Positions 40,503-51,874 of a DNA stretch of 64,000 nucleotides are shown here, one piece after another. The translations under genes were made by a program, and so were the position numbers. Position 1 is the first letter of the stretch. Every line of letters begins with the position of its first letter. Below the pieces are notes generated by a model, which worked only from the letters and a program-made list of their open reading frames with translations, was not told the origin of the DNA and did no database searches. Source of the DNA: an uncultured delta proteobacterium (GTDB taxonomy: Bacteria; Myxococcota_A; Polyangia; Haliangiales; Haliangiaceae); contig CAWKDB010000004.1 in the NCBI GenBank assembly GCA_963848295.1, forward strand, positions 32,001 to 96,000, in the 5' to 3' direction.

Positions 40503-41396
40503 TCAGTATCCATACTTGTTCGGGATGTCGAACGCGGCGGTGATCGTATAGGTCTGGGCGTGGACCGGGTCGCCGGCCACGTTGAACGAAACGCCGGCGG
40601 CGATGCGCGTGCCGCGATCGATCGGGCTCTTGAACGGACCCAAGAAGATTTCTGGCGCGATGAACAACGCCTCGGCGGGTGTCTTCGTCGCGCCCGGAGG
40701 GAGCGCGATCGAGCCATCGAGGTAGGTCGTGCTGTTCAGCTCGACGCTCGCGTAGACCGGAAAGCTCGAATGGATCGGCGTGAGGAGGACCGAGGCATAT
40801 GCCGTCTCGAGCAGCTGTCTCGCAGACGCCCCGTGAACGAGCGGTATCAACGCTGTGACGTTGCCCTCGAACACGAGCCGGTGGAAGAAGCGCTGAGCGG
40901 CATACGCGAACGGACCGACGAAGTAGTCGCCCGCGCTGATGTCGCCATGACCGGTCGGGAAGGTTCCCATCATCCCGATCGACAGCATGTCGTCGTGCTC
41001 CAACGAGCCCGACGCCAGGTACTGGAGCAGGAGTTGAGCGTCGCCGAAGCCCGTTGGCTGCTGATCGATGCCGATCTGGAACGGCACTGCCGCCACGATG
41101 CCGAGGTGCGGCGACAGGATCAACCCGAGCTCGGCCGATGGCACGTCGGCGCTGCCCTGGTTCCCGCGGGAGTACGCGTCGAAGATCTGGGCCTGTTGCT
41201 CCAGTTGTGGCGGCGCGCCGACGATCGGGAACGGAAAGAAAAGCTGCTCCCAGGTCGTCGGCTCCGGCTCTCCATCGTCGGCCCGCGTCGTTGACGACCA
41301 GGCGATCGCCGCCAGCAAACCGACCGCGGTGCCCAGGATCCTCGGCGTCTGGCCTTGGCCGAGCGAACAAGGGAACGACCTGCGATGCGGATTCAT
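40503..41396 (-). CDS. Hypothetical exported protein, possible outer-membrane beta-barrel
   Basis: Signal-like segment, GFGDAQL, FPTG, alternating aromatic/hydrophobic strands. Confidence 0.6.
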   Translation of the reverse strand: MNPHRRSFPCSLGQGQTPRILGTAVGLLAAIAWSSTTRADDGEPEPTTWEQLFFPFPIVGAPPQLEQQAQIFDAYSRGNQGSADVPSAELGLILSPHLGIVAAVPFQIGIDQQPTGFGDAQLLLQYLASGSLEHDDMLSIGMMGTFPTGHGDISAGDYFVGPFAYAAQRFFHRLVFEGNVTALIPLVHGASARQLLETAYASVLLTPIHSSFPVYASVELNSTTYLDGSIALPPGATKTPAEALFIAPEIFLGPFKSPIDRGTRIAAGVSFNVAGDPVHAQTYTITAAFDIPNKYGY

Positions 41397-41443
41397 CTGA
41401 AACACTAGCCTTCGTTTACGGTAGCCGTCTATGGTTACCATAA

Positions 41444-42647: not shown

Positions 42648-42829
42648 TTATGTCTGTCGATGGACGGAACGGCGGCCAAGGCTATCGCCGAACAATTGAA
42701 GAACGCCGAGATAACAGCTTGATCATCGCTGATGGCGACGTAGCCGAATGACTGTTCGGTCGAATTCGTGTCACGGCAATGTTTCAAATGCTTTCATTGA
42801 CTTGAGATGGCTACGATCGTATGGATGTG

Positions 42830-42849
42830 CCGAATGAACGTTCATTCCG
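42830..42849. promoter_or_regulatory. TetR operator (perfect 16-bp palindrome GAATGAACGTTCATTC)
   Basis: CCGAATGAACGTTCATTCCG overlaps the tetR ATG; TTGACT-17-TATGGA lies upstream (42797-42825). Confidence 0.85.
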
Positions 42850-43499
42850 GAAAGCGCCGAGCGACCGCCACCGCCGCCGAGACCCGCGGTCGCCAGGCGC
42901 ACGACGCCAAGCGCCGAGTTGTGCTGACCGCGGCGCTCGAGGCGTTCGCCGAACGCGGTTACTACGGAACGACCGTGCCCGACGTAGCAGCTGCTGCAGG
43001 CGTGGCGATCGGGACGCTCTATCACTACTTCGCGACCAAGGAGCGGCTCGTCAACGAGGTGTTCCGCGACGCCAAGCTCCGCATGCGCAGCGCACTGCTC
43101 GACGGCATCGCCGAGCCGGTGCTCGACAAACCGCAGGCGGTCGAGGCGTGGTTCTTCGAGATGTGGGGGCGGCTCGCCAGGTTCGTGCGCGCCGAGCCCG
43201 CCACGTTCCGGTTCCTCGAGATGCACGAGCACGTCGCGTACCTCGATCTCGAGAGCCGGCAGCACGAGCTCGCCACGGTCACGCCGATCTTCGCGGTGGT
43301 CCAGCGCGTCGCAGACCGCTCCGGCGGCGCGCGCGCCGACCTCATGGTCGCGCTGTCGTATGGCGCGTTCGTCGGGTTGTTCAGGGCCAGCCGGCACGGC
43401 TACGTGACACTCGACGACGCCAGCCTCACCGCCGCGGGCGCGATCGCGTGGCGGATGCTCGCGCCCGAGGCACTGCGCGCACTGGGAGAGCCGGAGTGA
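42834..43499 (+). CDS. TetR family regulator, Bm3R1/FatR-like
   Basis: FAERGYYGTTVPDVA..AGVAIGTLYHYFATKERLVNEVF; C-terminal F..H...YL..ES and GAF..L pattern. Confidence 0.9.
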   Translation: MNVHSGKRRATATAAETRGRQAHDAKRRVVLTAALEAFAERGYYGTTVPDVAAAAGVAIGTLYHYFATKERLVNEVFRDAKLRMRSALLDGIAEPVLDKPQAVEAWFFEMWGRLARFVRAEPATFRFLEMHEHVAYLDLESRQHELATVTPIFAVVQRVADRSGGARADLMVALSYGAFVGLFRASRHGYVTLDDASLTAAGAIAWRMLAPEALRALGEPE

Positions 43500-44473
43500 C
43501 CGCCGCGACGCGCACCGGGCTGCTCCGCCATGCCGCCGATCGCCGCGCGGTCGGGCTCGCGCTCGCGCACGTCGCGCTGGTCGCCGCGACGCTCGCCGCG
43601 TATCGCGCGGGCTACCCACGCTGGCTGTTCGCCGCGGTCACGTTCCCGGTGCTGTCGGTATCGTCGTTCGTCCAGCTGATCTCGGTGCACAACGCGATGC
43701 ACTCGCCGGTGTTCGCGAAGAAGGCGCACAACCGGCTGTGGCAGTGCGCGTTGTCGATCTGTATCGGCTACCCGGTGAGCATCTACGTGCCGGTCCACAA
43801 CCTCAGCCACCACCTCGGGCTGCAGACCCCGCGCGACGTGCTGCGAACGACCGAGGTGCGCCACCGCTGGAACCTCGCAAATCTCGTCCACCACATGGCG
43901 ATGGGCACGCTCCACCTCCACCTGTTGCACTTCGCGTATCTCGCCGAGATGCGCAAGTCGCGGCCGAAGTGGCTCGGCCAGGCGGGCTGGGAGGCGCTCG
44001 CGGTCGCGCTCTATCTGACCGCGTGCGCGCTCGTCGTCGGGCCGCTCGCGATGCTGGTCCTCGTGTTCGTGCCGGCGATCGCGGGGCAGTGGTTGATGGT
44101 CGGCTTCGGCTACGTCCAGCACGACGGCTGCGATCACGACAGCGAGTACAACCACTCGCGCAATTTTCTGTCGCCACTTTTGAACTGGGTGATCTGCGAC
44201 AACGGCTATCACACCGCTCATCACAATCGGCCGGGCTTGCACTGGAGCCTCGGGCGAGCGGCGCATCGCGAGCGCGTCGTGCCTCACATGGATCCGGCGC
44301 TCGACGAGCCGTCGCTCGTCCTCTACATGTGGCGCACGTTCGTGTGGCCTGGCAAGCGCCTGCACTACGACGGCACGCGGGTCGTGCTTCCGGCGCAGCG
44401 CGCGCGGCGCGAGCTGTGGACGCCGCCGAGCGCGATCTCGACCGGCGCTTCGAGCGGCGCAGTGGACGGCTGA
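43496..44473 (+). CDS. Membrane fatty acid desaturase family protein
   Basis: His boxes HNAMH, HNLSHH, HTAHH; TM segments. Confidence 0.92.
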   Translation: MTAATRTGLLRHAADRRAVGLALAHVALVAATLAAYRAGYPRWLFAAVTFPVLSVSSFVQLISVHNAMHSPVFAKKAHNRLWQCALSICIGYPVSIYVPVHNLSHHLGLQTPRDVLRTTEVRHRWNLANLVHHMAMGTLHLHLLHFAYLAEMRKSRPKWLGQAGWEALAVALYLTACALVVGPLAMLVLVFVPAIAGQWLMVGFGYVQHDGCDHDSEYNHSRNFLSPLLNWVICDNGYHTAHHNRPGLHWSLGRAAHRERVVPHMDPALDEPSLVLYMWRTFVWPGKRLHYDGTRVVLPAQRARRELWTPPSAISTGASSGAVDG

Positions 44474-45768
44474 TGCGGACCTCGACGTCGATCGCGATCC
44501 TCGGCGCGGGTGCCTCGGGCCTCACGCTCGCACGCCGGCTCGCCGACCTCGGGTTCACGCGCGTCGTCCTGTTCGAACGCGCCGCCGAGGTCGGTGGCAA
44601 GTCGTGCACGGTCGACCTCGATGGCCGGCCTCACGATCTCGGCGCGACGATGGGTGTGCCGATCGACTATCGCGAGGTCGTCGAGCTTTCGACCGAGGCG
44701 AAGCTGGCGACCGCGCGGTTTCCGACCGAGCTGCACTTCGATCAGCGCGGCCGCGTGGTGCCGCCCGGGCCGCGTCGCGACCTGCCGCAGGTGCTCGCGC
44801 AGACTGCGAAGTACGTCGCGCTTCATCGCCGGACGTTCCGCGGCGAGCTGCACGAAGCCGATCGCGAGCTCGCCGAGCCGTGGAGTGACGTCGTCGCGCG
44901 CCACGGGCTCGAGCACGCGAGTCGCCGCATGCTGTGCTACCGCACCGGCTATGGCTATGGCTTCGACGACGAGGTCCCGGCCGCAATGTACGCGAGCTTG
45001 ATCCAGCCGCGCACGCTGCTCGGGCTCGCGACCGGTGCGCCATTCGTGTGGCAGGGTGGTACCCAGCCGATCTGGAAGGCGCTCGCCGCGAGGATCGCGT
45101 CGCGGGTCGAGATCCGCCGCGCGACTCCGGTCACGCGGATCTCGCGCGACGGCCATGGCGTGCGCGTGTGGACCGGCGCGCGCGTCGAGCCCTTCGATCG
45201 CCTCGTCATCACGTGCGATCCGAAGCACGCGCTCGGCGTGCTCGACGCGAACGCGACCGAGCAGCGCTGGTTCTCGCAGGTGCGCACGTACCCGTACGCG
45301 ACGTTCGCGTGCGAGGTCGAAGGCCTGAGCGAGGGCCGCGCGTCGGTCGGCTATCTCGACGCGAACATGCGGCGCGATCGCATGGGCCGGCCGATGGCGT
45401 GGGTCAAGCGCTACGCCGACCAAGACGTCTTCGTGTTTCACCTGTTCGCGCCCGACGCGATGCCGGATGCCGAGATCGCGCGGCGGATCGCGGGCGATGT
45501 CGCGCGCCTCGGCGGCCGGTTCGTCGCCATTCGCGCGTCGCGCCGCTGGTCGTTCTTTCCGCACTTCTCGTGCGACGCGGTGCGTGGCGGCGCGCTCACC
45601 GAGATCGATCGCTGGCAGGGTGAGCGGCGCACGTATCTCGCCGGCGAGGCCCTGTCGTTCGCGACGATGGCCCGCGTGGTCGAGCTCGCGACGAAGCTCG
45701 CGCATCGCATCGCGCGCGAGCGCGAAGGCGTGTCGACCGTCGTGCCCGCGGCGCAGGTGGCGTCATGA
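44473..45768 (+). CDS. FAD-dependent enzyme, polyunsaturated fatty acid isomerase (PAI)-like
   Basis: GAGASG, VGGK, GATMGVP, GYG...VPAA, W..GTQ, NMR.DRMG, WSFFPH, QG.R.TY.AGE.LSF. Confidence 0.85.
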   Translation: MRTSTSIAILGAGASGLTLARRLADLGFTRVVLFERAAEVGGKSCTVDLDGRPHDLGATMGVPIDYREVVELSTEAKLATARFPTELHFDQRGRVVPPGPRRDLPQVLAQTAKYVALHRRTFRGELHEADRELAEPWSDVVARHGLEHASRRMLCYRTGYGYGFDDEVPAAMYASLIQPRTLLGLATGAPFVWQGGTQPIWKALAARIASRVEIRRATPVTRISRDGHGVRVWTGARVEPFDRLVITCDPKHALGVLDANATEQRWFSQVRTYPYATFACEVEGLSEGRASVGYLDANMRRDRMGRPMAWVKRYADQDVFVFHLFAPDAMPDAEIARRIAGDVARLGGRFVAIRASRRWSFFPHFSCDAVRGGALTEIDRWQGERRTYLAGEALSFATMARVVELATKLAHRIAREREGVSTVVPAAQVAS

Positions 45769-46997
45769 GCGAGGCCACTGCGACCCCGACGTTCACGCTG
45801 GCGGAAGTGCGCGAGCGCGGGCTGGTCGTCGTCGGCGACGACGTCTACGACATCACCAAGTTCGCCGCGAAACACCCCGGCGGCCCCGAGATCACGCAGC
45901 TGTGCGGCAGCGACGCGACGTTCCCGCTGATCAACGCACACGGCATCCGCGGCGAGTTGCCCAAGCTGCCCAAGAAGCTGCGCATCGGCACGATCGACCA
46001 CGCGACGCTCAAGCCCGCCGATCGCGACCTCCGCGCGATGTGGGCCGACTTCCGCGAGCGCGGGCTGTTCCGCTACAAGCCGTGGTGGTTCGCGCTCGAC
46101 CTCGTGCGCGGGCTCGGCTTCTTCCTGCTCGGCTGGCTCGTCATGGATCGCTCGCCGGTCGCGGCGTTCTTCGCGCTGCTCGTCGCGCGGCTCAACGTGA
46201 TGTGGTGGGTCCACGACGCCTGTCACGACTCGGTGTTCACCGATCGCAAGGTCGCGAAGCGCTGGGCGGAGTTCATGTCGCTGCTGTTCGTCGGCACGTC
46301 GGTGCTCGAGTACCAGTACGTGGTGCATCGCATGCACCACGGGTTTACGAACACGATCGGCGCCGATCAGGCGATCCAGACCGGCCCGGTCGTGTGGCAC
46401 GAGATGATGCGCGCGCGCACGAGCGACACGTTCGTGCCGGTGCAATCGATCTTCTGGTTCGCGGTCGTGCTGCCGCTGACGCTGCCGTACTTCATCTACA
46501 TCGGGTTTCGCCACTCGATCCGCGAGCGCGCCTACTGGACGATGCTCGGCGTCGTCGTGCGCTGGGGGATCGCGCTGTGGGTGTTCGACGATCACCTCGT
46601 GATGTTTCTCGGCTCGAGCATCTTGGCGGCGTACATCCTCGGGCTGACCGCGAGCCTCAACCACTTTCACCGGCCGATGTCGTCGCAGACCGACTGGAGC
46701 TTCGCGCGCTCGGTCACCTGCGTGACCCAGAACTTCGGCGGGCGCAACCGGGTCACGGGCTGGCTCGTCGGTGGCTTGTCGTTTCATATCGAGCATCACT
46801 TCTTCGCGACGATGCCACGCCGCAACTACCGCAAGATCGCGGCCGAGATCCGCGCGTACTGCGAGCGCCATCACCTCGCCTACGAGACCGTCTCGCTCGG
46901 CCACGCGGTCGCCACGCTGTGGCGCAAGCTCCGCCATCCGTACGACAACAACGTGCCGCCGAGCCGGCCGAGCATGGAGCTCCGCCGTGGCGGCTAG
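45765..46997 (+). CDS. Cytochrome b5-fused fatty acid desaturase
   Basis: VYDIT.F..KHPGG b5 domain; HDACH, HRMHH, HIEHH. Confidence 0.92.
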   Translation: MSEATATPTFTLAEVRERGLVVVGDDVYDITKFAAKHPGGPEITQLCGSDATFPLINAHGIRGELPKLPKKLRIGTIDHATLKPADRDLRAMWADFRERGLFRYKPWWFALDLVRGLGFFLLGWLVMDRSPVAAFFALLVARLNVMWWVHDACHDSVFTDRKVAKRWAEFMSLLFVGTSVLEYQYVVHRMHHGFTNTIGADQAIQTGPVVWHEMMRARTSDTFVPVQSIFWFAVVLPLTLPYFIYIGFRHSIRERAYWTMLGVVVRWGIALWVFDDHLVMFLGSSILAAYILGLTASLNHFHRPMSSQTDWSFARSVTCVTQNFGGRNRVTGWLVGGLSFHIEHHFFATMPRRNYRKIAAEIRAYCERHHLAYETVSLGHAVATLWRKLRHPYDNNVPPSRPSMELRRGG

Positions 46998-47745
46998 GCG
47001 CGGCCCGAATCGCGCCGACCTCGCACCGGCGCTCGTGATCACCGGGGGCGTCGCGCTCGCGTTGGTTCCGTTCGCGATCGCGCTTCCCGCGGCGGTGCTC
47101 GCCCCCGTGTGGCTGGCCTCGTTCGTCGCGCGCAGCATCGCACCCGTGCACCAGCACTGCCACGCGCACGCGAAGGTCTTCCGGAGCGCGGTGCTCGATG
47201 CGACGTACGACACGATCCTCATGCTCGCGGCCGGCAACACGACCGCGGTATGGGAGCTCCAGCACGTGCGCGGTCATCACCGCACGTACCTCGGCCGGGT
47301 CGGCGATCCCGCGAATAACGATCGGTTCGGCGGCGGTCGCGTGCGGTTCACGGTCCTCGGCGATGCGGCGTCGATCGCTGACTCGCTCCGCATCGCGCGG
47401 GGCGATCACAGCGCGCGCCGGCGCCTCGTCGCTCAGCTCGCGCTCCAGCTCGCCGTGATCGTGGCGCTCGCGATCGTCCACCCCGGTCTCGCGCTCGCGT
47501 TCTTCCTGGTGCCGTGGCTGCTCCTCCGCTGGGCCGTCTTCTGGTTCAGCTTCGCGCAACACGATTCCGTGCCCATGCACGACGTCTACAGCGGATCGGT
47601 GACTCGGTTTGGCTGGACCAACCGCATGTACCTGAACGTCGGCCATCACACCGCGCATCACGAGAAGCCGACGCTGCACTGGACGCAGCTGCCGGCGCGC
47701 ACCGACAAGATCGTGGAAAGGATCCCGGCGTCGTGCTTGCGCTGA
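46987..47745 (+). CDS. Fatty acid desaturase family protein (compact)
   Basis: HQHCHAH, HVRGHH, QH, NVGHHTAHH; GTG start overlaps upstream gene. Confidence 0.88.
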   Translation: MAARRGPNRADLAPALVITGGVALALVPFAIALPAAVLAPVWLASFVARSIAPVHQHCHAHAKVFRSAVLDATYDTILMLAAGNTTAVWELQHVRGHHRTYLGRVGDPANNDRFGGGRVRFTVLGDAASIADSLRIARGDHSARRRLVAQLALQLAVIVALAIVHPGLALAFFLVPWLLLRWAVFWFSFAQHDSVPMHDVYSGSVTRFGWTNRMYLNVGHHTAHHEKPTLHWTQLPARTDKIVERIPASCLR

Positions 47746-48923
47746 CCATCCGACCGTTCGAGCGGCTTGCCGAGCACACGGTGCGCCGCGCGTTCGAGAC
47801 CGCCGACATCGCGGTCGGCGGATCGCGTCCGTGGGACGTGCGGGTCCGCGCTCCGAGCTTCTACACGCGGCTCGCGCGTAATCCCGCGTTCCAGCTCGGC
47901 GACACGTACCTCGACGACCTGTGGGAATGCGACGCGATCGACGAGCTGCTCTACCGGTTGCTCGCGTCGGGCGTCGCGCGCGATAGCGAACGGCGCGGCA
48001 CATTCCATCTGCGTTCCGCGTGGGCGCGCCTGCGCAACCGGCAGTCGGTCGCGCGCGCGACCGACGTCGCGACCGCCCACTACGACCTCGACACCGAGCT
48101 GTACCGCCGGATGCTCGACGATTCGCTCACGTACACCTGCGCGTACTTCCGGTCGCCGACCGACGAGCTCGGAGCCGCCCAGCGCAACAAGCTCGCGATG
48201 GTGTGCGACAAGCTCGCGCTCCAGCCTGGCGAGACCCTGCTCGACATCGGCTGCGGGTTCGGCGGGCTCGCCGCGTTCGCAGCGCGCAATTACGGCGTGC
48301 ACGTCGTCGGGGTCACCAACTCGGTGCAGCATCATCGCGTCGCACGCGAGCGCTATGCCGACCTGCCGATCGAGTTCTTGCTGCTCGACTATCGCGAGCT
48401 GCCCGGCCTGCACCGCCGGTTCGACAAGATCGCGTCGATCGAGATGATCGAGGCGGTCGGTCCGAAGAACTTCGCGACGTTCATGGCGATCGCGCACGAC
48501 TGCCTCGCGCCCGACGGCCGATTCCTGTTGCAGTCGTTCATCTCCCCGACGAGCCGGTATGTGTGCAACGAGTGGTTCGATCGCTACATCTTTCCCAACG
48601 GCGTCTCGCCCTCGTTCGCGCAGCTCGCGCGCGCGACCCGGCGCAACTTCGGTGCGCCGCAGCACGTCGAGGACCTCGGCGCGCACTATTCGCCGACGCT
48701 GCTCGCATGGGATCGCAACCTCCGCGGCGCGTGGACGGACCTCGAGGCCGCGCTCGGCCGGCGGTACGACGCTCGGTTCCGCCGGATGTGGCACTTCTAT
48801 CTGACGTGCCTGGCCGGCGCATTCCGTGCCGAGGATCTCCGGCTGTGCCAGACCGTCTATGCGAACGAGCCGGTCGGCGAGCTGGCTCGGCTCGAGCCAA
48901 ATGCGGCTACGCCGGTTGGGTAA
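47733..48923 (+). CDS. cfa: Cyclopropane-fatty-acyl-phospholipid synthase family SAM methyltransferase
   Basis: HYDL, YTCAYF, AQRNKL..CDKL, LLDIGCGFGG, EMIEAVG, YIFPNG, F.RMW.FYL. Confidence 0.9.
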   Translation: MLALTIRPFERLAEHTVRRAFETADIAVGGSRPWDVRVRAPSFYTRLARNPAFQLGDTYLDDLWECDAIDELLYRLLASGVARDSERRGTFHLRSAWARLRNRQSVARATDVATAHYDLDTELYRRMLDDSLTYTCAYFRSPTDELGAAQRNKLAMVCDKLALQPGETLLDIGCGFGGLAAFAARNYGVHVVGVTNSVQHHRVARERYADLPIEFLLLDYRELPGLHRRFDKIASIEMIEAVGPKNFATFMAIAHDCLAPDGRFLLQSFISPTSRYVCNEWFDRYIFPNGVSPSFAQLARATRRNFGAPQHVEDLGAHYSPTLLAWDRNLRGAWTDLEAALGRRYDARFRRMWHFYLTCLAGAFRAEDLRLCQTVYANEPVGELARLEPNAATPVG

Positions 48924-50370
48924 GCGACGGTACGTCGCCGGTTCGCGCGAGCTCGGCGAACCAGCGCGCACTCGCTTTGGGCGTGCGACGCATCGTGGCT
49001 CGATCGACGTGCACGAGTCCGAAGCTGGCTTCGGGATGGTAGCCGTGCTCCCACTCGTAGTTGTCGAGAAACGTCCACGCGAAGTAGGCCTCGACGGGCA
49101 CGCTGGCGCGCACCGCCTTGAGGACGCGCTCGACGTGCTCGGTCAGATAGGCGATGCGGCGGTTGTCGGGCGTCATCGTGCCTGTGTCGTCGAACTTGGG
49201 CTTCTCCGCCATGCCATTCTCCGACACGTAGACGCGCTTGAGCCCGTAGCTACGATAGGCGTGCCAGACCTGGTGAAGCATGTCGTAGATCGCCGTCGGG
49301 TAGTACGGCGGGACAAAGATCGGCCAGCCCAGGTCGTTGGTCGGCGCGTCCTTGATCAGGCACGACCGATAACGCAGCTCGGCGCTCGGATCGTCTTCGA
49401 CCATGAGACCGTAGTAGTTGTTGATGCCGATGAAGTGGCAGCGAGCGCCGATCTTGATCTGGCGCATGTCGGCTTCCCCCACCGGCGGTAGGTGAGCGGC
49501 CATGAGCTCTGCGAGCTCGGCCGGGTACGTGCCGAGAAAGACCGGATCGAGGAACCACGCGTTGGACATCCCATCCGCGATCCGCGCAGCGCGCAGATCG
49601 TCCTCGCTCGAGGTCATCGCATAGCAAGGCATCGTGCTGAGCACCGGGCCGAGCCGAGCGTCGGGCCGGTGGCGCCAGACCTCCTCGGCCATCGCGCCGC
49701 CGGCGAGCAGGAGGTGATGCGCCGCCGCGAATGCGCGCGACAGCGATCTCTCGCCCGGCGCATGCACCCCTTGATGATATCCGAGGAAGGCGGCACACCA
49801 CGGTTCGTTGATCGTGAAGTACTCGTCGATCAGATCGCCTAACGAGTCTGCGACGACGGCGGCGTGTCGCGCGAGCAGATCGACGGTGTCGCGATTGGCC
49901 CAGCCGCCCGCATCTTGAGCGTACTGGGGCAGCTCCCAGTGATAGAGCGTCACGTAGGTGCGGATGCCGCGGTCGTGCAGACCGCCGAGGAATCGGCGAT
50001 ACCAGGCCAACGCGCGGTCGTTTGGACTTCCGTCACGGTGCAGGACGCGTGCGACCGACACCGAGGTGCGGAAGTGCCGGATCCCGAGGGTCGCGAGCAG
50101 GTCGAGATCCGCCTCCCAGCGGTGAAACCGATCGACTCCCGCGAGCGTCGAGTCGGCGTGGCGCGCCTCGGAGAACCGCAGCCACATCGATGGTTCTGAT
50201 CCCTCTTCGTCGAGGGTGTGGCGCTCGCCGATCACTTGCAGGTCAGAGTCACCGAGCCCGAACCGAAACCCGTCTGGAAACGCGGGGCGCATGGTCGGAG
50301 CGTAGTCCGACGCTGGCCATAGGGAAGCCAGTCGGGCGACGATCTCAGGACGCACGTAGTTGGCATTCAT
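48907..50370 (-). CDS. Glycoside hydrolase family 1 (beta-glucosidase-like); alternative start 50292
   Basis: TLYHWELP, TINEPW (acid/base), VSENG (nucleophile), WTFLDNYEW. Confidence 0.92.
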   Translation of the reverse strand: MNANYVRPEIVARLASLWPASDYAPTMRPAFPDGFRFGLGDSDLQVIGERHTLDEEGSEPSMWLRFSEARHADSTLAGVDRFHRWEADLDLLATLGIRHFRTSVSVARVLHRDGSPNDRALAWYRRFLGGLHDRGIRTYVTLYHWELPQYAQDAGGWANRDTVDLLARHAAVVADSLGDLIDEYFTINEPWCAAFLGYHQGVHAPGERSLSRAFAAAHHLLLAGGAMAEEVWRHRPDARLGPVLSTMPCYAMTSSEDDLRAARIADGMSNAWFLDPVFLGTYPAELAELMAAHLPPVGEADMRQIKIGARCHFIGINNYYGLMVEDDPSAELRYRSCLIKDAPTNDLGWPIFVPPYYPTAIYDMLHQVWHAYRSYGLKRVYVSENGMAEKPKFDDTGTMTPDNRRIAYLTEHVERVLKAVRASVPVEAYFAWTFLDNYEWEHGYHPEASFGLVHVDRATMRRTPKASARWFAELARTGDVPSLTQPA

Positions 50371-51874
50371 TACCGTCGCGATCGAGGCGGACGCTCGAAG
50401 CATAGGTCACGATCGCCTGGCGCCAGACCCAGAGGATGGCGAACCGAACCAAGCACAGCGCGAACGCCGCGGCGGTGCCGGCGACCAGATTGGTCACGGC
50501 CATCGTCGCGCATGCGGCGAGCAGGCACGCACCGAGCGCGAGCTCGGTCAGCATCCAGCGAAGTTGTCCCGGCACCACGTGGGCGATGAACTTGTTCGTG
50601 CGCACGAACCGCGAGTGTCGGTTCCACAGGCACGACAGCCAGCTGAGCGAGAAGATCCAGCCGAGGCCAAGGTGTGTCGTGTAGGCGCGCATCACGTCGC
50701 GGTACGTGCAGCCGTCGCGTCGCAGCCCGACCGCGATCGTGACGAAGCGCAGCACGAAGAACGAGAGCAACGTGGCCGCGCTGAGATAGATCGCGACGTC
50801 CTGCACCGGCGCGAGCGGCCCGACCGCCGCCGCGATCGCGAGTACGATCAGGGATAGCGACGGGATCAGGTTGAAGTTGAACCACGCCGTCATGTGGGCA
50901 CAGATCCCGAGCTTCTGCCGCCACGCGAGCTCGCGTCCGAACAAGAGCTGACGCCATGATGCGCGCAGGATCTGTGCGTTGCCGAAGGCCCAGCGCCAGC
51001 GCTGCTTCTTGATCCCGGCGAGATCGAGCGGCATGAGCCCGGCACCGGCGGGCTCGTCGACATAGACCGTGCGGTAGCCGTGGCGTAGGAAGCGCAGGCC
51101 CAGCTCGGCATCCTCCGTGATCACCTCGGTATCGAATCCGCCCACGGCTCGAAGCGCGCGGAGATCGATCAGCGTCAGGGTTCCCGTCGAGGGGACGCAA
51201 TCGAGTCGATTCGCCATGTGCATGTAGCTCGCGAAGTAATGCCGGAACTCGAGAGCGAGGCCGGCGTTGTCGCGGGCGATGTTGCGATAGCCCTGCGGGA
51301 ACTGGACGACCGCGACGCGATCGCCGGTGACGTAGGTGAACGCGCGCCGCAGACAATCGGGAACCACCTGGTAGTCGGCGTCGACGACGAAGATGTACTC
51401 GGCGCGCCGATCGATGTAGGCGCGCGCCCAGTTCAACGCGCCGGCCTTGGCACCGGGAAGCCCTTCGACGTGCAGGAAGCGAAATCGCGGGCCGAGCTCG
51501 GCACACGCGCGCGCCACCGGACGCCAGATCGCCGGATCGACCGTGTTGTTATCGATCACGACGACCTCGTAGGCCGACCATTCGAGGCGCGCCAGGCTGC
51601 GTAGCGTTTCGATCAGGACGTCCGGGGGCTCGTCATGAGCCGGAACCTGGATCGACACGAACGGCTCGCGTGGGTTGGACACGGCTCGCGAAGGCCGTTT
51701 GCGCGGCAGAGACATGAGCGCGGCCTGCAGACCGACCACGCAGAGATTCGCGACGAGGTTGCACAGCACCAGCACGGCGAGTGCGACCGGGCAAAGCCAC
51801 GCGAGGACGACGCCGATGGTCGCGGCCGCGAGAGCCATCCACCGCGGGGGGCCGTGTCGACGGAGATGCTTCAT
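50345..51874 (-). CDS. Processive GT2 glycosyltransferase (NdvB/cellulose synthase-like)
   Basis: IDNNT, KAGALN, VDADY, QFPQ, ITEDAELG, QRWRW; TM segments at both ends. Confidence 0.9.
   Translation of the reverse strand: MKHLRRHGPPRWMALAAATIGVVLAWLCPVALAVLVLCNLVANLCVVGLQAALMSLPRKRPSRAVSNPREPFVSIQVPAHDEPPDVLIETLRSLARLEWSAYEVVVIDNNTVDPAIWRPVARACAELGPRFRFLHVEGLPGAKAGALNWARAYIDRRAEYIFVVDADYQVVPDCLRRAFTYVTGDRVAVVQFPQGYRNIARDNAGLALEFRHYFASYMHMANRLDCVPSTGTLTLIDLRALRAVGGFDTEVITEDAELGLRFLRHGYRTVYVDEPAGAGLMPLDLAGIKKQRWRWAFGNAQILRASWRQLLFGRELAWRQKLGICAHMTAWFNFNLIPSLSLIVLAIAAAVGPLAPVQDVAIYLSAATLLSFFVLRFVTIAVGLRRDGCTYRDVMRAYTTHLGLGWIFSLSWLSCLWNRHSRFVRTNKFIAHVVPGQLRWMLTELALGACLLAACATMAVTNLVAGTAAAFALCLVRFAILWVWRQAIVTYASSVRLDRDGNECQLRAS

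What the first reader, a model, noticed from the sequence alone, without database searches (positions are those of the whole stretch)
42830..48923. Six-gene fatty-acid tailoring operon: three desaturases + PUFA-isomerase homolog + Cfa-like methyltransferase under a lipid-sensing TetR
Seen: tetR, desaturase, flavoprotein, b5-desaturase, desaturase and cfa all overlap at their junctions (GTGA, TGATG, ATGA and two short overlaps), so they form one operon. It has no ACP, fatty acyl-AMP ligase, PKS or thioesterase. Known: each family modifies C=C bonds of acyl chains. The characterised bacterial furan-fatty-acid route uses a Cfa-like methylase, a flavoprotein and DUF1365, and DUF1365 is absent here. 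Polyyne clusters carry ACP/FAAL. Inference: this is an O2-dependent route to an unusual membrane or free fatty acid (conjugated polyene, enyne, methyl-branched, cyclopropyl or furan type). I do not recognise this gene combination as a described pathway.
Basis: partly seen in the sequence, partly recalled or inferred. Interest (0 to 1): 0.9.

Follow-up and report, generated by a model that had tools for sequence, protein, structure and literature searches.

The report
Myxobacterial methylase-isomerase fatty-acid tailoring operon
A six-gene operon, kept intact in several uncultured myxobacteria, pairs an unusual lipid methyltransferase with a double-bond isomerase (the two are fused into one protein in other bacteria) and three desaturases, and likely builds a methyl-branched, conjugated membrane fatty acid by a route not found in the papers searched.

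Summary
Observation confirmed. tetR, desA, a PAI-type flavoprotein, a cytochrome-b5 desaturase, desC and a Cfa-like gene overlap by 4/1/4/11/13 nt. The same gene order occurs in 6 of 147 genomes of the order (relatives titled Kofleriaceae/Myxococcales), and shorter versions occur in Polyangia-like MAGs. The core is the methyltransferase plus the isomerase: two other bacterial proteins fuse them, and both fused halves are sister to the operon genes. The methyltransferase has an E. coli Cfa scaffold, but its clade carries G236E/H240A/H266Q/I268F. The first three changes also occur in UfaM-like methylases; H266Q also occurs in active cotton cyclopropane synthases. The genome has a canonical cfa and a ufaD-DUF1365-ufaM cluster elsewhere, so this operon is an extra route. 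The b5 desaturase has His, not Gln, opening its third box (65 of 65). A FadR-like palindrome overlaps the tetR start; 'lipid-sensing' is not shown. Best reading: an O2-dependent route to a methyl-branched conjugated polyene acyl chain (0.4). Rivals: cyclopropyl or cyclopropene chain, furan chain, PUFA scavenging, sphingolipid tailoring. The product is unproven. New variant of a known kind.

The parts
42795..42823 (+). Probable promoter: TTGACT, 17 nt, then a TA-starting hexamer 8 nt before the ATG at 42834 (leaderless transcript inferred)
   Evidence: Sequence; TTGA-start hexamer at similar distance in 6 of 7 aligned relatives. The consensus scan did not call it.
42832..42847 (.). Perfect 16-bp palindrome GAATGA-ACGT-TCATTC, probable TetR operator, overlapping the tetR start
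   Evidence: Found with at most 2 mismatches at the tetR start in 7 of 7 distinct related loci that include it, and not in 3 loci without tetR. 6 exact sites in the genome against 0.04 expected. A weaker copy lies at 42746-42761.
42834..43499 (+). tetR, 221 aa (open frame from 42807), TetR-family repressor
   Evidence: PF00440 E 8e-18; 51-66% identity to orthologs at the head of the operon
43496..44473 (+). desA, 325-aa membrane di-iron desaturase-family protein; boxes HNAMH, HNLSHH, QHDG, HTAHH intact
   Evidence: PF00487 E 4e-24; box histidines invariant in 10 aligned orthologs
44473..45768 (+). PAI-type FAD enzyme, 431 aa, soluble
   Evidence: 2b9w E 2e-42; TM 0.87; no hydrophobic segment
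45765..46997 (+). Cytochrome-b5-fused desaturase, 410 aa, front-end-like layout with HPGG but third box HIEHH
   Evidence: PF00173 + PF00487; H[IV]EHH and [SG]LNH[FY]H in 65 of 65 family members
46987..47745 (+). desC, 252-aa desaturase-family protein; boxes HQHCH, QHVRGHH, QHD, HHTAHH
   Evidence: PF00487 E 1e-21; absent in L026, and a ~50% paralog follows the methyltransferase in four loci
47733..48923 (+). Cfa-family SAM methyltransferase, 396 aa, with E237/A241/Q267/F269 where E. coli Cfa has G236/H240/H266/I268
   Evidence: PRK11705 407 bits against cut-off 400; alignment to 6bqc; clade counts

Best explanation
The operon likely makes a methyl-branched, conjugated polyunsaturated acyl chain on membrane phospholipids, using O2 and SAM. 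Shown: the six genes form one conserved unit, and the methyltransferase and the PAI-type flavoprotein travel together and are fused in two other bacteria. Inferred steps: (1) the three di-iron enzymes add cis double bonds to a C16-C18 chain, with the b5 domain feeding electrons; (2) the Cfa-like enzyme adds a SAM methyl to a cis double bond and, with Glu237/Gln267 in place of the bicarbonate site, removes a neighbouring proton to leave a methyl branch beside a shifted trans double bond, as UfaM and MmaA1 do; (3) the flavoprotein takes a hydride from the allylic or bis-allylic carbon onto FAD and returns it elsewhere, giving a conjugated diene or polyene, so that it stands in for UfaD. The TetR likely represses the leaderless operon at the palindrome until a lipid-like ligand releases it. 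The product may serve as a membrane antioxidant or be passed to the genome's DUF1365 (UfaO-like) enzyme to give a furan fatty acid.
For: Strict co-occurrence: PAI clade, desA (69% or more) and the methyltransferase (65% or more) are in the same 6 of 147 genomes. Fusions: L037:5519-8245, 908 aa, and P0064, 921 aa, are CMAS + Amino_oxidase. The fusion halves are sister to the operon clades in the PAI tree (99) and the Cfa tree (99 with four motif columns removed). Motif: G236E 65 of 66, H240A, H266Q and I268F each 64 of 66 among the nearest hits, against G 54 of 55 and H266 52 of 55 among the next hits. All 15 Cfa-family genes detected beside DUF1365 (29 loci read) have E..EAVG and Q. MmaA1 has Glu at the G236 position and makes trans-olefins with methyl branches (PMC12845086, passages). 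E239/H266/Y317 bind the catalytic bicarbonate in E. coli Cfa (PMC11387697, passages). The genome already has a canonical-motif cfa. The UfaM then flavoprotein sequence gives an 11-methyl-10,12-diene on phospholipid (PMC7380195, first part and passages).
Against: Cotton GhCPS1/2 also have H266Q and do make cyclopropane fatty acids (PMC3132707, passages), so the motif does not exclude a ring. MmaA1 keeps the His266 equivalent. The protein still passes the E. coli Cfa family cut-off and is closer to canonical-motif Cfa (46%) than to UfaM-like proteins (37%; the canonical set was chosen by similarity to it). PAI uses only free fatty acids (PMC5442254, passages), whereas Cfa and UfaM act on phospholipids, and the operon has no lipase. 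This is softened, not removed, by PAI-like domains sitting next to ACP in many multidomain proteins and by changed pocket residues. No desaturase regiochemistry could be assigned. No lipid, expression or enzyme data exist here.
Confidence: 0.4

Rival explanations
1. The methyltransferase closes a cyclopropane ring as plant CPS enzymes do, and the desaturases and flavoprotein place double bonds next to or in the ring, giving a vinyl-cyclopropane or cyclopropene (sterculic-type) fatty acid.
For: H266Q occurs in active cotton cyclopropane synthases, which also carry C139S and a fused FAD-oxidase domain (PMC3132707, passages). Both bacterial fusions have H266Q and C139S. E. coli Cfa scaffold and family cut-off are met.
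Against: The genome has a canonical cfa already. The motif matches DUF1365-linked UfaM-like genes in 15 of 15. A PAI-type hydride shuttle fits a skipped diene better than a ring (recalled mechanism).
Confidence: 0.25
2. The operon is a self-contained second route to furan fatty acids: desaturases and the PAI-type enzyme make a conjugated diene, one di-iron enzyme inserts O2 in place of UfaO, and the methyltransferase methylates the diene or the furan as FufM does.
For: PAI's product 10E,12Z-18:2 (PMC13365329, passages) has the diene position of the furan precursor 11Me-10,12-18:2 (PMC7380195). FufM shows a Cfa-family enzyme can methylate a furan. The b5 enzyme has a non-standard third box, which might mean non-desaturase chemistry.
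Against: 23 of 24 sampled genus members already carry DUF1365. No furan-forming di-iron membrane enzyme appeared in my searches. The fusion locus has no desaturase in the 5.5 kb upstream (the contig ends 0.6 kb downstream).
Confidence: 0.15
3. The operon scavenges or detoxifies polyunsaturated fatty acids taken from prey or plant litter: the TetR senses them, the flavoprotein isomerises the free acid and the other enzymes remodel it.
For: PAI acts on free fatty acid. The operator shares half-sites with those at fadR-etfB and a fadE-like gene. The distribution is patchy, 6 of 147.
Against: Desaturases and a SAM methyltransferase spend reductant and SAM and add unsaturation. No hydratase, reductase, CoA ligase or transporter is in the operon (an SDR is inserted in 1 of 6).
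Confidence: 0.1
4. The genes tailor sphingoid bases, as fungi do with delta-4 and b5-fused delta-8 desaturases and a Cfa-family C9-methyltransferase, giving a 9-methyl sphingadiene or triene.
For: The gene set parallels that eukaryotic pathway (recalled, not tested against sequences). Myxobacteria make sphingolipids (recalled).
Against: None of the 4 BioF/SPT-family proteins in the genome reaches a serine palmitoyltransferase cut-off (243-304 bits against 500-670), though two are unassigned and the genome is 85% complete. It leaves the fused fatty acid isomerase unexplained.
Confidence: 0.07

Closest known systems
UfaM-UfaD-UfaO(-FufM) furan fatty acid pathway (Rhodobacter, Rhodopseudomonas; PMC7380195)
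   Same: A Cfa-family methylase working with an FAD enzyme on acyl double bonds; the E..EAVG/Q motif is shared with DUF1365-linked methylases.
   Different: No DUF1365 in the operon. The flavoprotein is PAI-type (149 bits to PAI, 36 bits to the genome's UfaD-like protein). The methylase is on a separate branch. Two to four di-iron desaturases are added.
Propionibacterium (Cutibacterium) acnes PUFA isomerase PAI, PDB 2B9W
   Same: Whole-length sequence and fold match, TM 0.87; aromatic residue kept at the Phe168 position (Tyr 42, Phe 4 of 46).
   Different: 28% identity. Phe165 is Arg (43 of 46), Phe193 is Leu (45 of 46) and the Arg88 position is variable (Arg in 15 of 46; near a gap). It lies in a biosynthetic operon and is fused to a methyltransferase in relatives.
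Plant cyclopropane synthases (Sterculia, cotton GhCPS1/2; PMC3132707)
   Same: Cfa domain with H266Q joined to an FAD domain in one protein, as in the two bacterial fusions.
   Different: Domain order is reversed (plant: oxidase first). The paper links the plant oxidase domain to a bacterial gene near a CPS homolog; I did not compare the plant sequences directly.
E. coli cyclopropane fatty acid synthase Cfa (PDB 6BQC)
   Same: Two-domain scaffold, E 1e-87, family cut-off passed; E239, Y317 and C139 kept.
   Different: G236E, H240A, H266Q and I268F are fixed across the clade.
Front-end (cytochrome b5-fused) desaturases
   Same: N-terminal b5 with HPGG, three histidine boxes; sources label relatives delta-6 or FADS-like.
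   Different: The third box starts with His in 65 of 65; 3 of the 4 more distant myxobacterial homologs with a readable box have Gln.

Membership tests
E. coli-type cyclopropane fatty acid synthase | Whole-protein score over the NCBIfam PRK11705 cut-off, N-terminal lipid-binding domain | tested here: met
   407 against 400 bits; aligns to 6bqc over residues 21-378
E. coli-type cyclopropane fatty acid synthase | Bicarbonate ligands Glu239, His266, Tyr317 | tested here: not met
   His266 is Gln in 64 of 66; Glu239 and Tyr317 are kept; ligands from PMC11387697
E. coli-type cyclopropane fatty acid synthase | Forms a cyclopropane ring on phospholipid | not testable with these tools
   Needs an assay
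UfaM/UfaD/UfaO furan pathway | DUF1365 (UfaO) gene in the cluster | tested here: not met
   None in the operon; present in a separate cluster on contig C10
UfaM/UfaD/UfaO furan pathway | UfaD-type flavoprotein and UfaM orthologue | tested here: not met
   36 bits to the UfaD-like protein; methylase on a separate branch from 14 DUF1365-linked genes, 37% identity. The characterised Rhodobacter sequences were not in hand; DUF1365-adjacent genes stood in for them.
PAI-type PUFA isomerase | PAI fold with FAD-binding motif | tested here: met
PAI-type PUFA isomerase | Arg88/Phe193 gate for a free carboxylate (roles recalled; the paper could not be read) | tested here: not met
   Thr85 and Leu185 by alignment; Leu in 45 of 46, Arg in 15 of 46; the Arg88 alignment lies near a gap
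PAI-type PUFA isomerase | Isomerises a skipped cis,cis-diene to a conjugated diene | not testable with these tools
   Needs an assay
Front-end desaturase | N-terminal cytochrome b5 with HPGG and three histidine boxes | tested here: met
Front-end desaturase | Gln opening the third box (QxxHH; feature recalled) | tested here: not met
   H[IV]EHH in 65 of 65
Polyyne / ACP-dependent desaturase clusters | ACP, fatty acyl-AMP ligase and thioesterase in the cluster (recalled) | tested here: not met
   None among the 10 proteins scanned; flanks of related loci were listed but mostly not scanned
Plant-type cyclopropane synthase | H266Q Cfa domain with an FAD domain fused at its N-terminus | tested here: inconclusive
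   Gln met; separate genes here, and reverse order in the fusions
Sphingolipid 9-methyl tailoring | Host makes sphingolipids (serine palmitoyltransferase) | tested here: inconclusive
   0 of 4 candidates over the cut-off; two unassigned; genome 85% complete
FadR-type acyl-CoA-sensing TetR | Whole-protein match to FadR and a FadR-type box | tested here: inconclusive
   39 against 200 bits; operator half-sites equal those at the genome's fadR-etfB and fadE-like genes; the two closest paralogs sit near SDR genes

The most novel reading that the evidence does not exclude
The operon is a bacterial route to a strained or oxygen-containing ring lipid made by membrane di-iron enzymes: either a cyclopropene (sterculic-type) fatty acid, whose ring-desaturating enzyme the cotton paper leaves unidentified, or a furan fatty acid made without DUF1365. 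The PAI-type enzyme would act on membrane-bound chains as the partner of a new methyltransferase subfamily.
Probability: 0.18. Interest if true: 0.82.

Novelty: new variant of a known kind. Interest (0 to 1): 0.6.

Why it matters
It gives a biosynthetic setting to the PAI family, whose one solved member works alone on free linoleate. It defines a Cfa-family subfamily (65 sequences here) that automatic annotation calls cyclopropane synthase although a bicarbonate ligand is replaced. It supplies a small, testable set of enzymes that may place methyl branches, conjugated double bonds or rings on esterified chains. A PAI-type enzyme that accepts esterified chains would remove a stated bottleneck in making conjugated linoleic acid (PMC5442254). 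If the ring reading holds, it would supply candidates for the missing cyclopropene step.

Tried and rejected
Chance clustering or a single-genome oddity: rejected by synteny. The convergent GH1 glucosidase (48907-50403, 17-nt overlap) and the upstream padR/doxX genes as part of the unit: not seen in the flank listings of nine related loci. 'H266Q proves it is not a cyclopropane synthase': rejected after reading the cotton paper. 'It is the UfaM/D/O pathway': rejected. Convergent origin of the motif from E. coli-type Cfa: not resolved, the fork is open. Imidacin pathway: a PKS product, unrelated (PMC11301661, first of three parts). Atlas searches for desA and desC gave only generic desaturase clusters. 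More distant desA homologs stand without other operon genes in the six regions read, so they gave no function. No solved relative of desA. Plasmid search gave one distant, unannotated hit. No RNA holder listed. Earlier scan findings: none. The PAI structure papers, Huang 2002 and Lemke 2014 were not held under the ids tried, so PAI residue roles are recalled. Finds in PMC12089945, PMC7020751 and PMC10785318 gave nothing useful. The B. subtilis FadR box consensus was not found in the listing. No supplements were read; sequence-network supplements of PMC11387697 might bear on whether this Cfa clade was noted before.
Full report
OBSERVATION. The six genes lie on the + strand at 42834-43499 (tetR; frame open from 42807), 43496-44473 (desA), 44473-45768 (flavoprotein), 45765-46997 (b5 desaturase), 46987-47745 (desC) and 47733-48923 (Cfa-like). 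Overlaps are 4, 1, 4, 11 and 13 nt and GC3 is 0.87-0.94. Pfam confirms the families. The histidine boxes of all three desaturases are intact and conserved in orthologs. The flavoprotein matches P. acnes PAI over its length (2b9w, E 2e-42); a model at pLDDT 91.5 has PAI as its clear best fold match, TM 0.87. Neighbours are padR/doxX upstream and a convergent GH1 glucosidase downstream.

HOST AND SPREAD. The window is in G000 (7.8 Mb, 85% complete). Relatives with the operon are titled Kofleriaceae, Myxococcales or Myxococcota bacterium. Among 147 genomes of the order, 6 (all one genus, G000 included) have the flavoprotein clade. The same 6 have desA at 69% or more (14 have any hit at 1e-20) and the methyltransferase at 65% or more (9 at 1e-85, the other three at 42-46%). 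All six have tetR-desA-pai-b5des-desC-cfa in this order; one has two extra genes, including an SDR, after tetR. A fourth desaturase follows the methyltransferase in G023, G010, G031 and L033. Versions without tetR occur in L026 (no desC), L027 (contig ends) and L034. Of 16 loci from the genome and metagenome scans (7 + 9; L028 and L029 give the same matches), 15 show operon neighbours in this order and 1 is a fusion. Flanking genes differ between the six genomes, so this is an accessory cassette. In a sample of 401 genomes of the phylum, 17 have a PAI-like gene; only G000's belongs to this clade, and none of the other 16 has an operon gene within 1.5 kb. G010 is unpublished: it is one of the six genomes, one of the four loci with a fourth desaturase, one of the tetR operator loci and one of the 15 DUF1365-linked genes.

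THE CORE IS METHYLASE PLUS ISOMERASE. L037, a 44%-GC metagenome contig, encodes a 908-aa protein with a CMAS domain followed by the flavoprotein. P0064 (921 aa, MBY0371359.1) has the same layout. In the flavoprotein tree (85 rows, FastTree) the fusion group is sister to the operon clade, support 99. In the Cfa tree (52 rows, four motif columns removed) fusion and operon sequences form one group, support 99. The pair is therefore shared more widely than the desaturases, whose number varies. L037 has no desaturase in 5.5 kb upstream, but its contig ends 0.6 kb downstream.

THE METHYLTRANSFERASE IS NOT A PLAIN CFA. It passes the E. coli family cut-off narrowly, but reads SIEMIEAVG...FLLQSF where the solved synthases 6bqc, 7qos and 5z9o read SVGMFEHVG...L(L/I)H. 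Among it and its 65 best hits, G236E is in 65 of 66 and H240A, H266Q and I268F in 64 of 66 each. The exceptions are one canonical Cfa and one aberrant fragment. Among the next 55 hits G236 is kept in 54 and H266 in 52. Glu239, His266 and Tyr317 hold the catalytic bicarbonate in E. coli Cfa (PMC11387697, passages). G000 itself gives two controls: a canonical-motif cfa on C2, and on C10 a flavoprotein-DUF1365-methylase cluster whose methylase has the E/A/Q motif. All 15 Cfa-family genes detected beside DUF1365 in 29 loci have that motif. MmaA1, which makes methyl branches with trans olefins, has Glu at the first position but keeps the His; in Hma, Glu146, Glu149 and Ser178 hold a water (PMC8708032, passages). 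Against a simple reading, cotton GhCPS1/2 have H266Q and make cyclopropane acids (PMC3132707, passages). The motif thus marks methylases that partner an FAD enzyme; it shifts the odds from ring to branch without settling them. The clade is not a UfaM orthologue (37% identity, separate branch); whether the motif arose twice is unresolved.

THE FLAVOPROTEIN. It is PAI-type, not UfaD-type (36 bits to the genome's UfaD-like protein). By the alignment, PAI Phe168 is Tyr160, Phe165 is Arg157, Phe193 is Leu185 and Arg88 is Thr85. In 46 clade members these are Tyr 42/Phe 4, Arg 43, Leu 45, and variable with Arg in 15. From memory, Arg88 and Phe193 close the channel on a free carboxylate and Phe168 stabilises the cation; the papers were not held. 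PAI uses only free fatty acid (PMC5442254, passages). An altered gate, and PAI-like domains beside ACP in FAAL-ACP-thioesterase proteins, make esterified substrates plausible here. This is inference.

THE DESATURASES. The b5 enzyme forms a tight family (64 hits at 34-94%) with a front-end layout, but its third box is H[IV]EHH in 65 of 65; 3 of 4 distant myxobacterial homologs with a readable box have Gln. desA and desC fall in large uncharacterised desaturase clusters. No position or reaction type can be assigned. G000 has five other desaturase-family genes.

REGULATION. A perfect palindrome GAATGA-ACGT-TCATTC overlaps the tetR ATG, downstream of a TTGAC element, and recurs at the tetR start in all 7 distinct related loci that include it. 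This suggests an autoregulated, leaderless transcript. The genome has 6 exact sites against 0.04 expected (mean 0.14 for 59 permuted hexamers, highest 4). The others lie at a FadR-like gene before etfB, before a fadE-like acyl-CoA dehydrogenase, at two TetR paralogs and at an SDR gene. The operon's TetR matches FadR only in the DNA-binding domain. Lipid sensing is plausible, not shown.

MECHANISM. Most likely (0.4) the operon builds a methyl-branched conjugated polyene on membrane lipid: desaturation, SAM methylation with proton loss, then FAD-mediated double-bond migration. One concrete version: methylation of cis-vaccenate gives 11-methyl-12E as UfaM does (PMC7380195), a 9-desaturation makes a skipped diene, and the PAI-type enzyme moves it to the 11-methyl-10,12-diene, with further desaturation extending the system. 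Every chemical step is inferred. Rivals are a cyclopropyl or cyclopropene chain (0.25), a self-contained furan route (0.15), PUFA scavenging (0.1) and sphingoid-base tailoring (0.07; no serine palmitoyltransferase over cut-off among 4 candidates).

NOVELTY. It works like the methylase-flavoprotein lipid-tailoring units (UfaM/D, plant CPS) but fails membership of the furan pathway, of polyyne clusters and, at the active site, of E. coli Cfa. Five searches of the open-access library (listings only, apart from the papers named) showed no description of this combination or of a Cfa-PAI fusion; subscription journals and MIBiG were not searched. No earlier scan finding matched. Verdict: real, conserved, product unknown; new variant of a known kind; interest 0.6.

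Noticed in passing
L037:5519-8245; P0064: Cfa-like methyltransferase fused to the PAI-type flavoprotein in two unrelated bacterial records (908 and 921 aa); domain order is the reverse of plant cyclopropane synthases.
   Followed up: yes
P0095, P0096, P0102, P0111, P0115, P0126, P0136, P0138, P0139 and others: PAI-like domains are common inside FAAL-ACP-thioesterase and PKS-type multidomain proteins, some with a P450; they form their own branch. I found no paper on them.
   Followed up: partly
P0069, P0071: Proteins of 860-892 aa made of two tandem flavin amine-oxidase-family (PAI-like) domains.
   Followed up: no
L021:8674-12074 (G000 C10): Separate flavoprotein-DUF1365-methylase cluster, the layout of the UfaD/O/M furan fatty acid pathway; DUF1365 is in 23 of 24 sampled genus members.
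   Followed up: yes
G000 C2:145046-148210: The canonical-motif cfa lies convergent with, and about 1 kb from, another desaturase gene.
   Followed up: no
L060:4025-5489, L062:4011-5870, L061, L063: The same GAATGA-N4-TCATTC box marks a FadR-like gene before etfB, a fadE-like gene and two TetR paralogs near SDR genes; a probable FadR regulon of this genus.
   Followed up: partly
L025:4919-7022 and L061:3900-6192: A tetR-unknown ORF-SDR unit stands alone in G000 and heads the operon in G031, suggesting the regulator was recruited from that unit.
   Followed up: partly
L026:3790-5277, L034:11348-12385: In both tetR-less versions the methyltransferase is followed at once by a similar membrane-type ORF with no Pfam hit.
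   Followed up: partly
P0398-P0401: Relatives of the b5 desaturase that lack the b5 domain but keep the HIEHH box.
   Followed up: no
L051, L052/L056, L053: Several genomes of the phylum carry pairs of neighbouring distant PAI-like genes.
   Followed up: no
window 48907-50403 (-): GH1 beta-glucosidase convergent with the operon end, overlapping it by 17 nt; not seen beside the operon in relatives.
   Followed up: partly
window 40503-41441 (-): 312-aa ORF with no Pfam or NCBIfam hit, looks like a secreted or outer-membrane protein.
   Followed up: no
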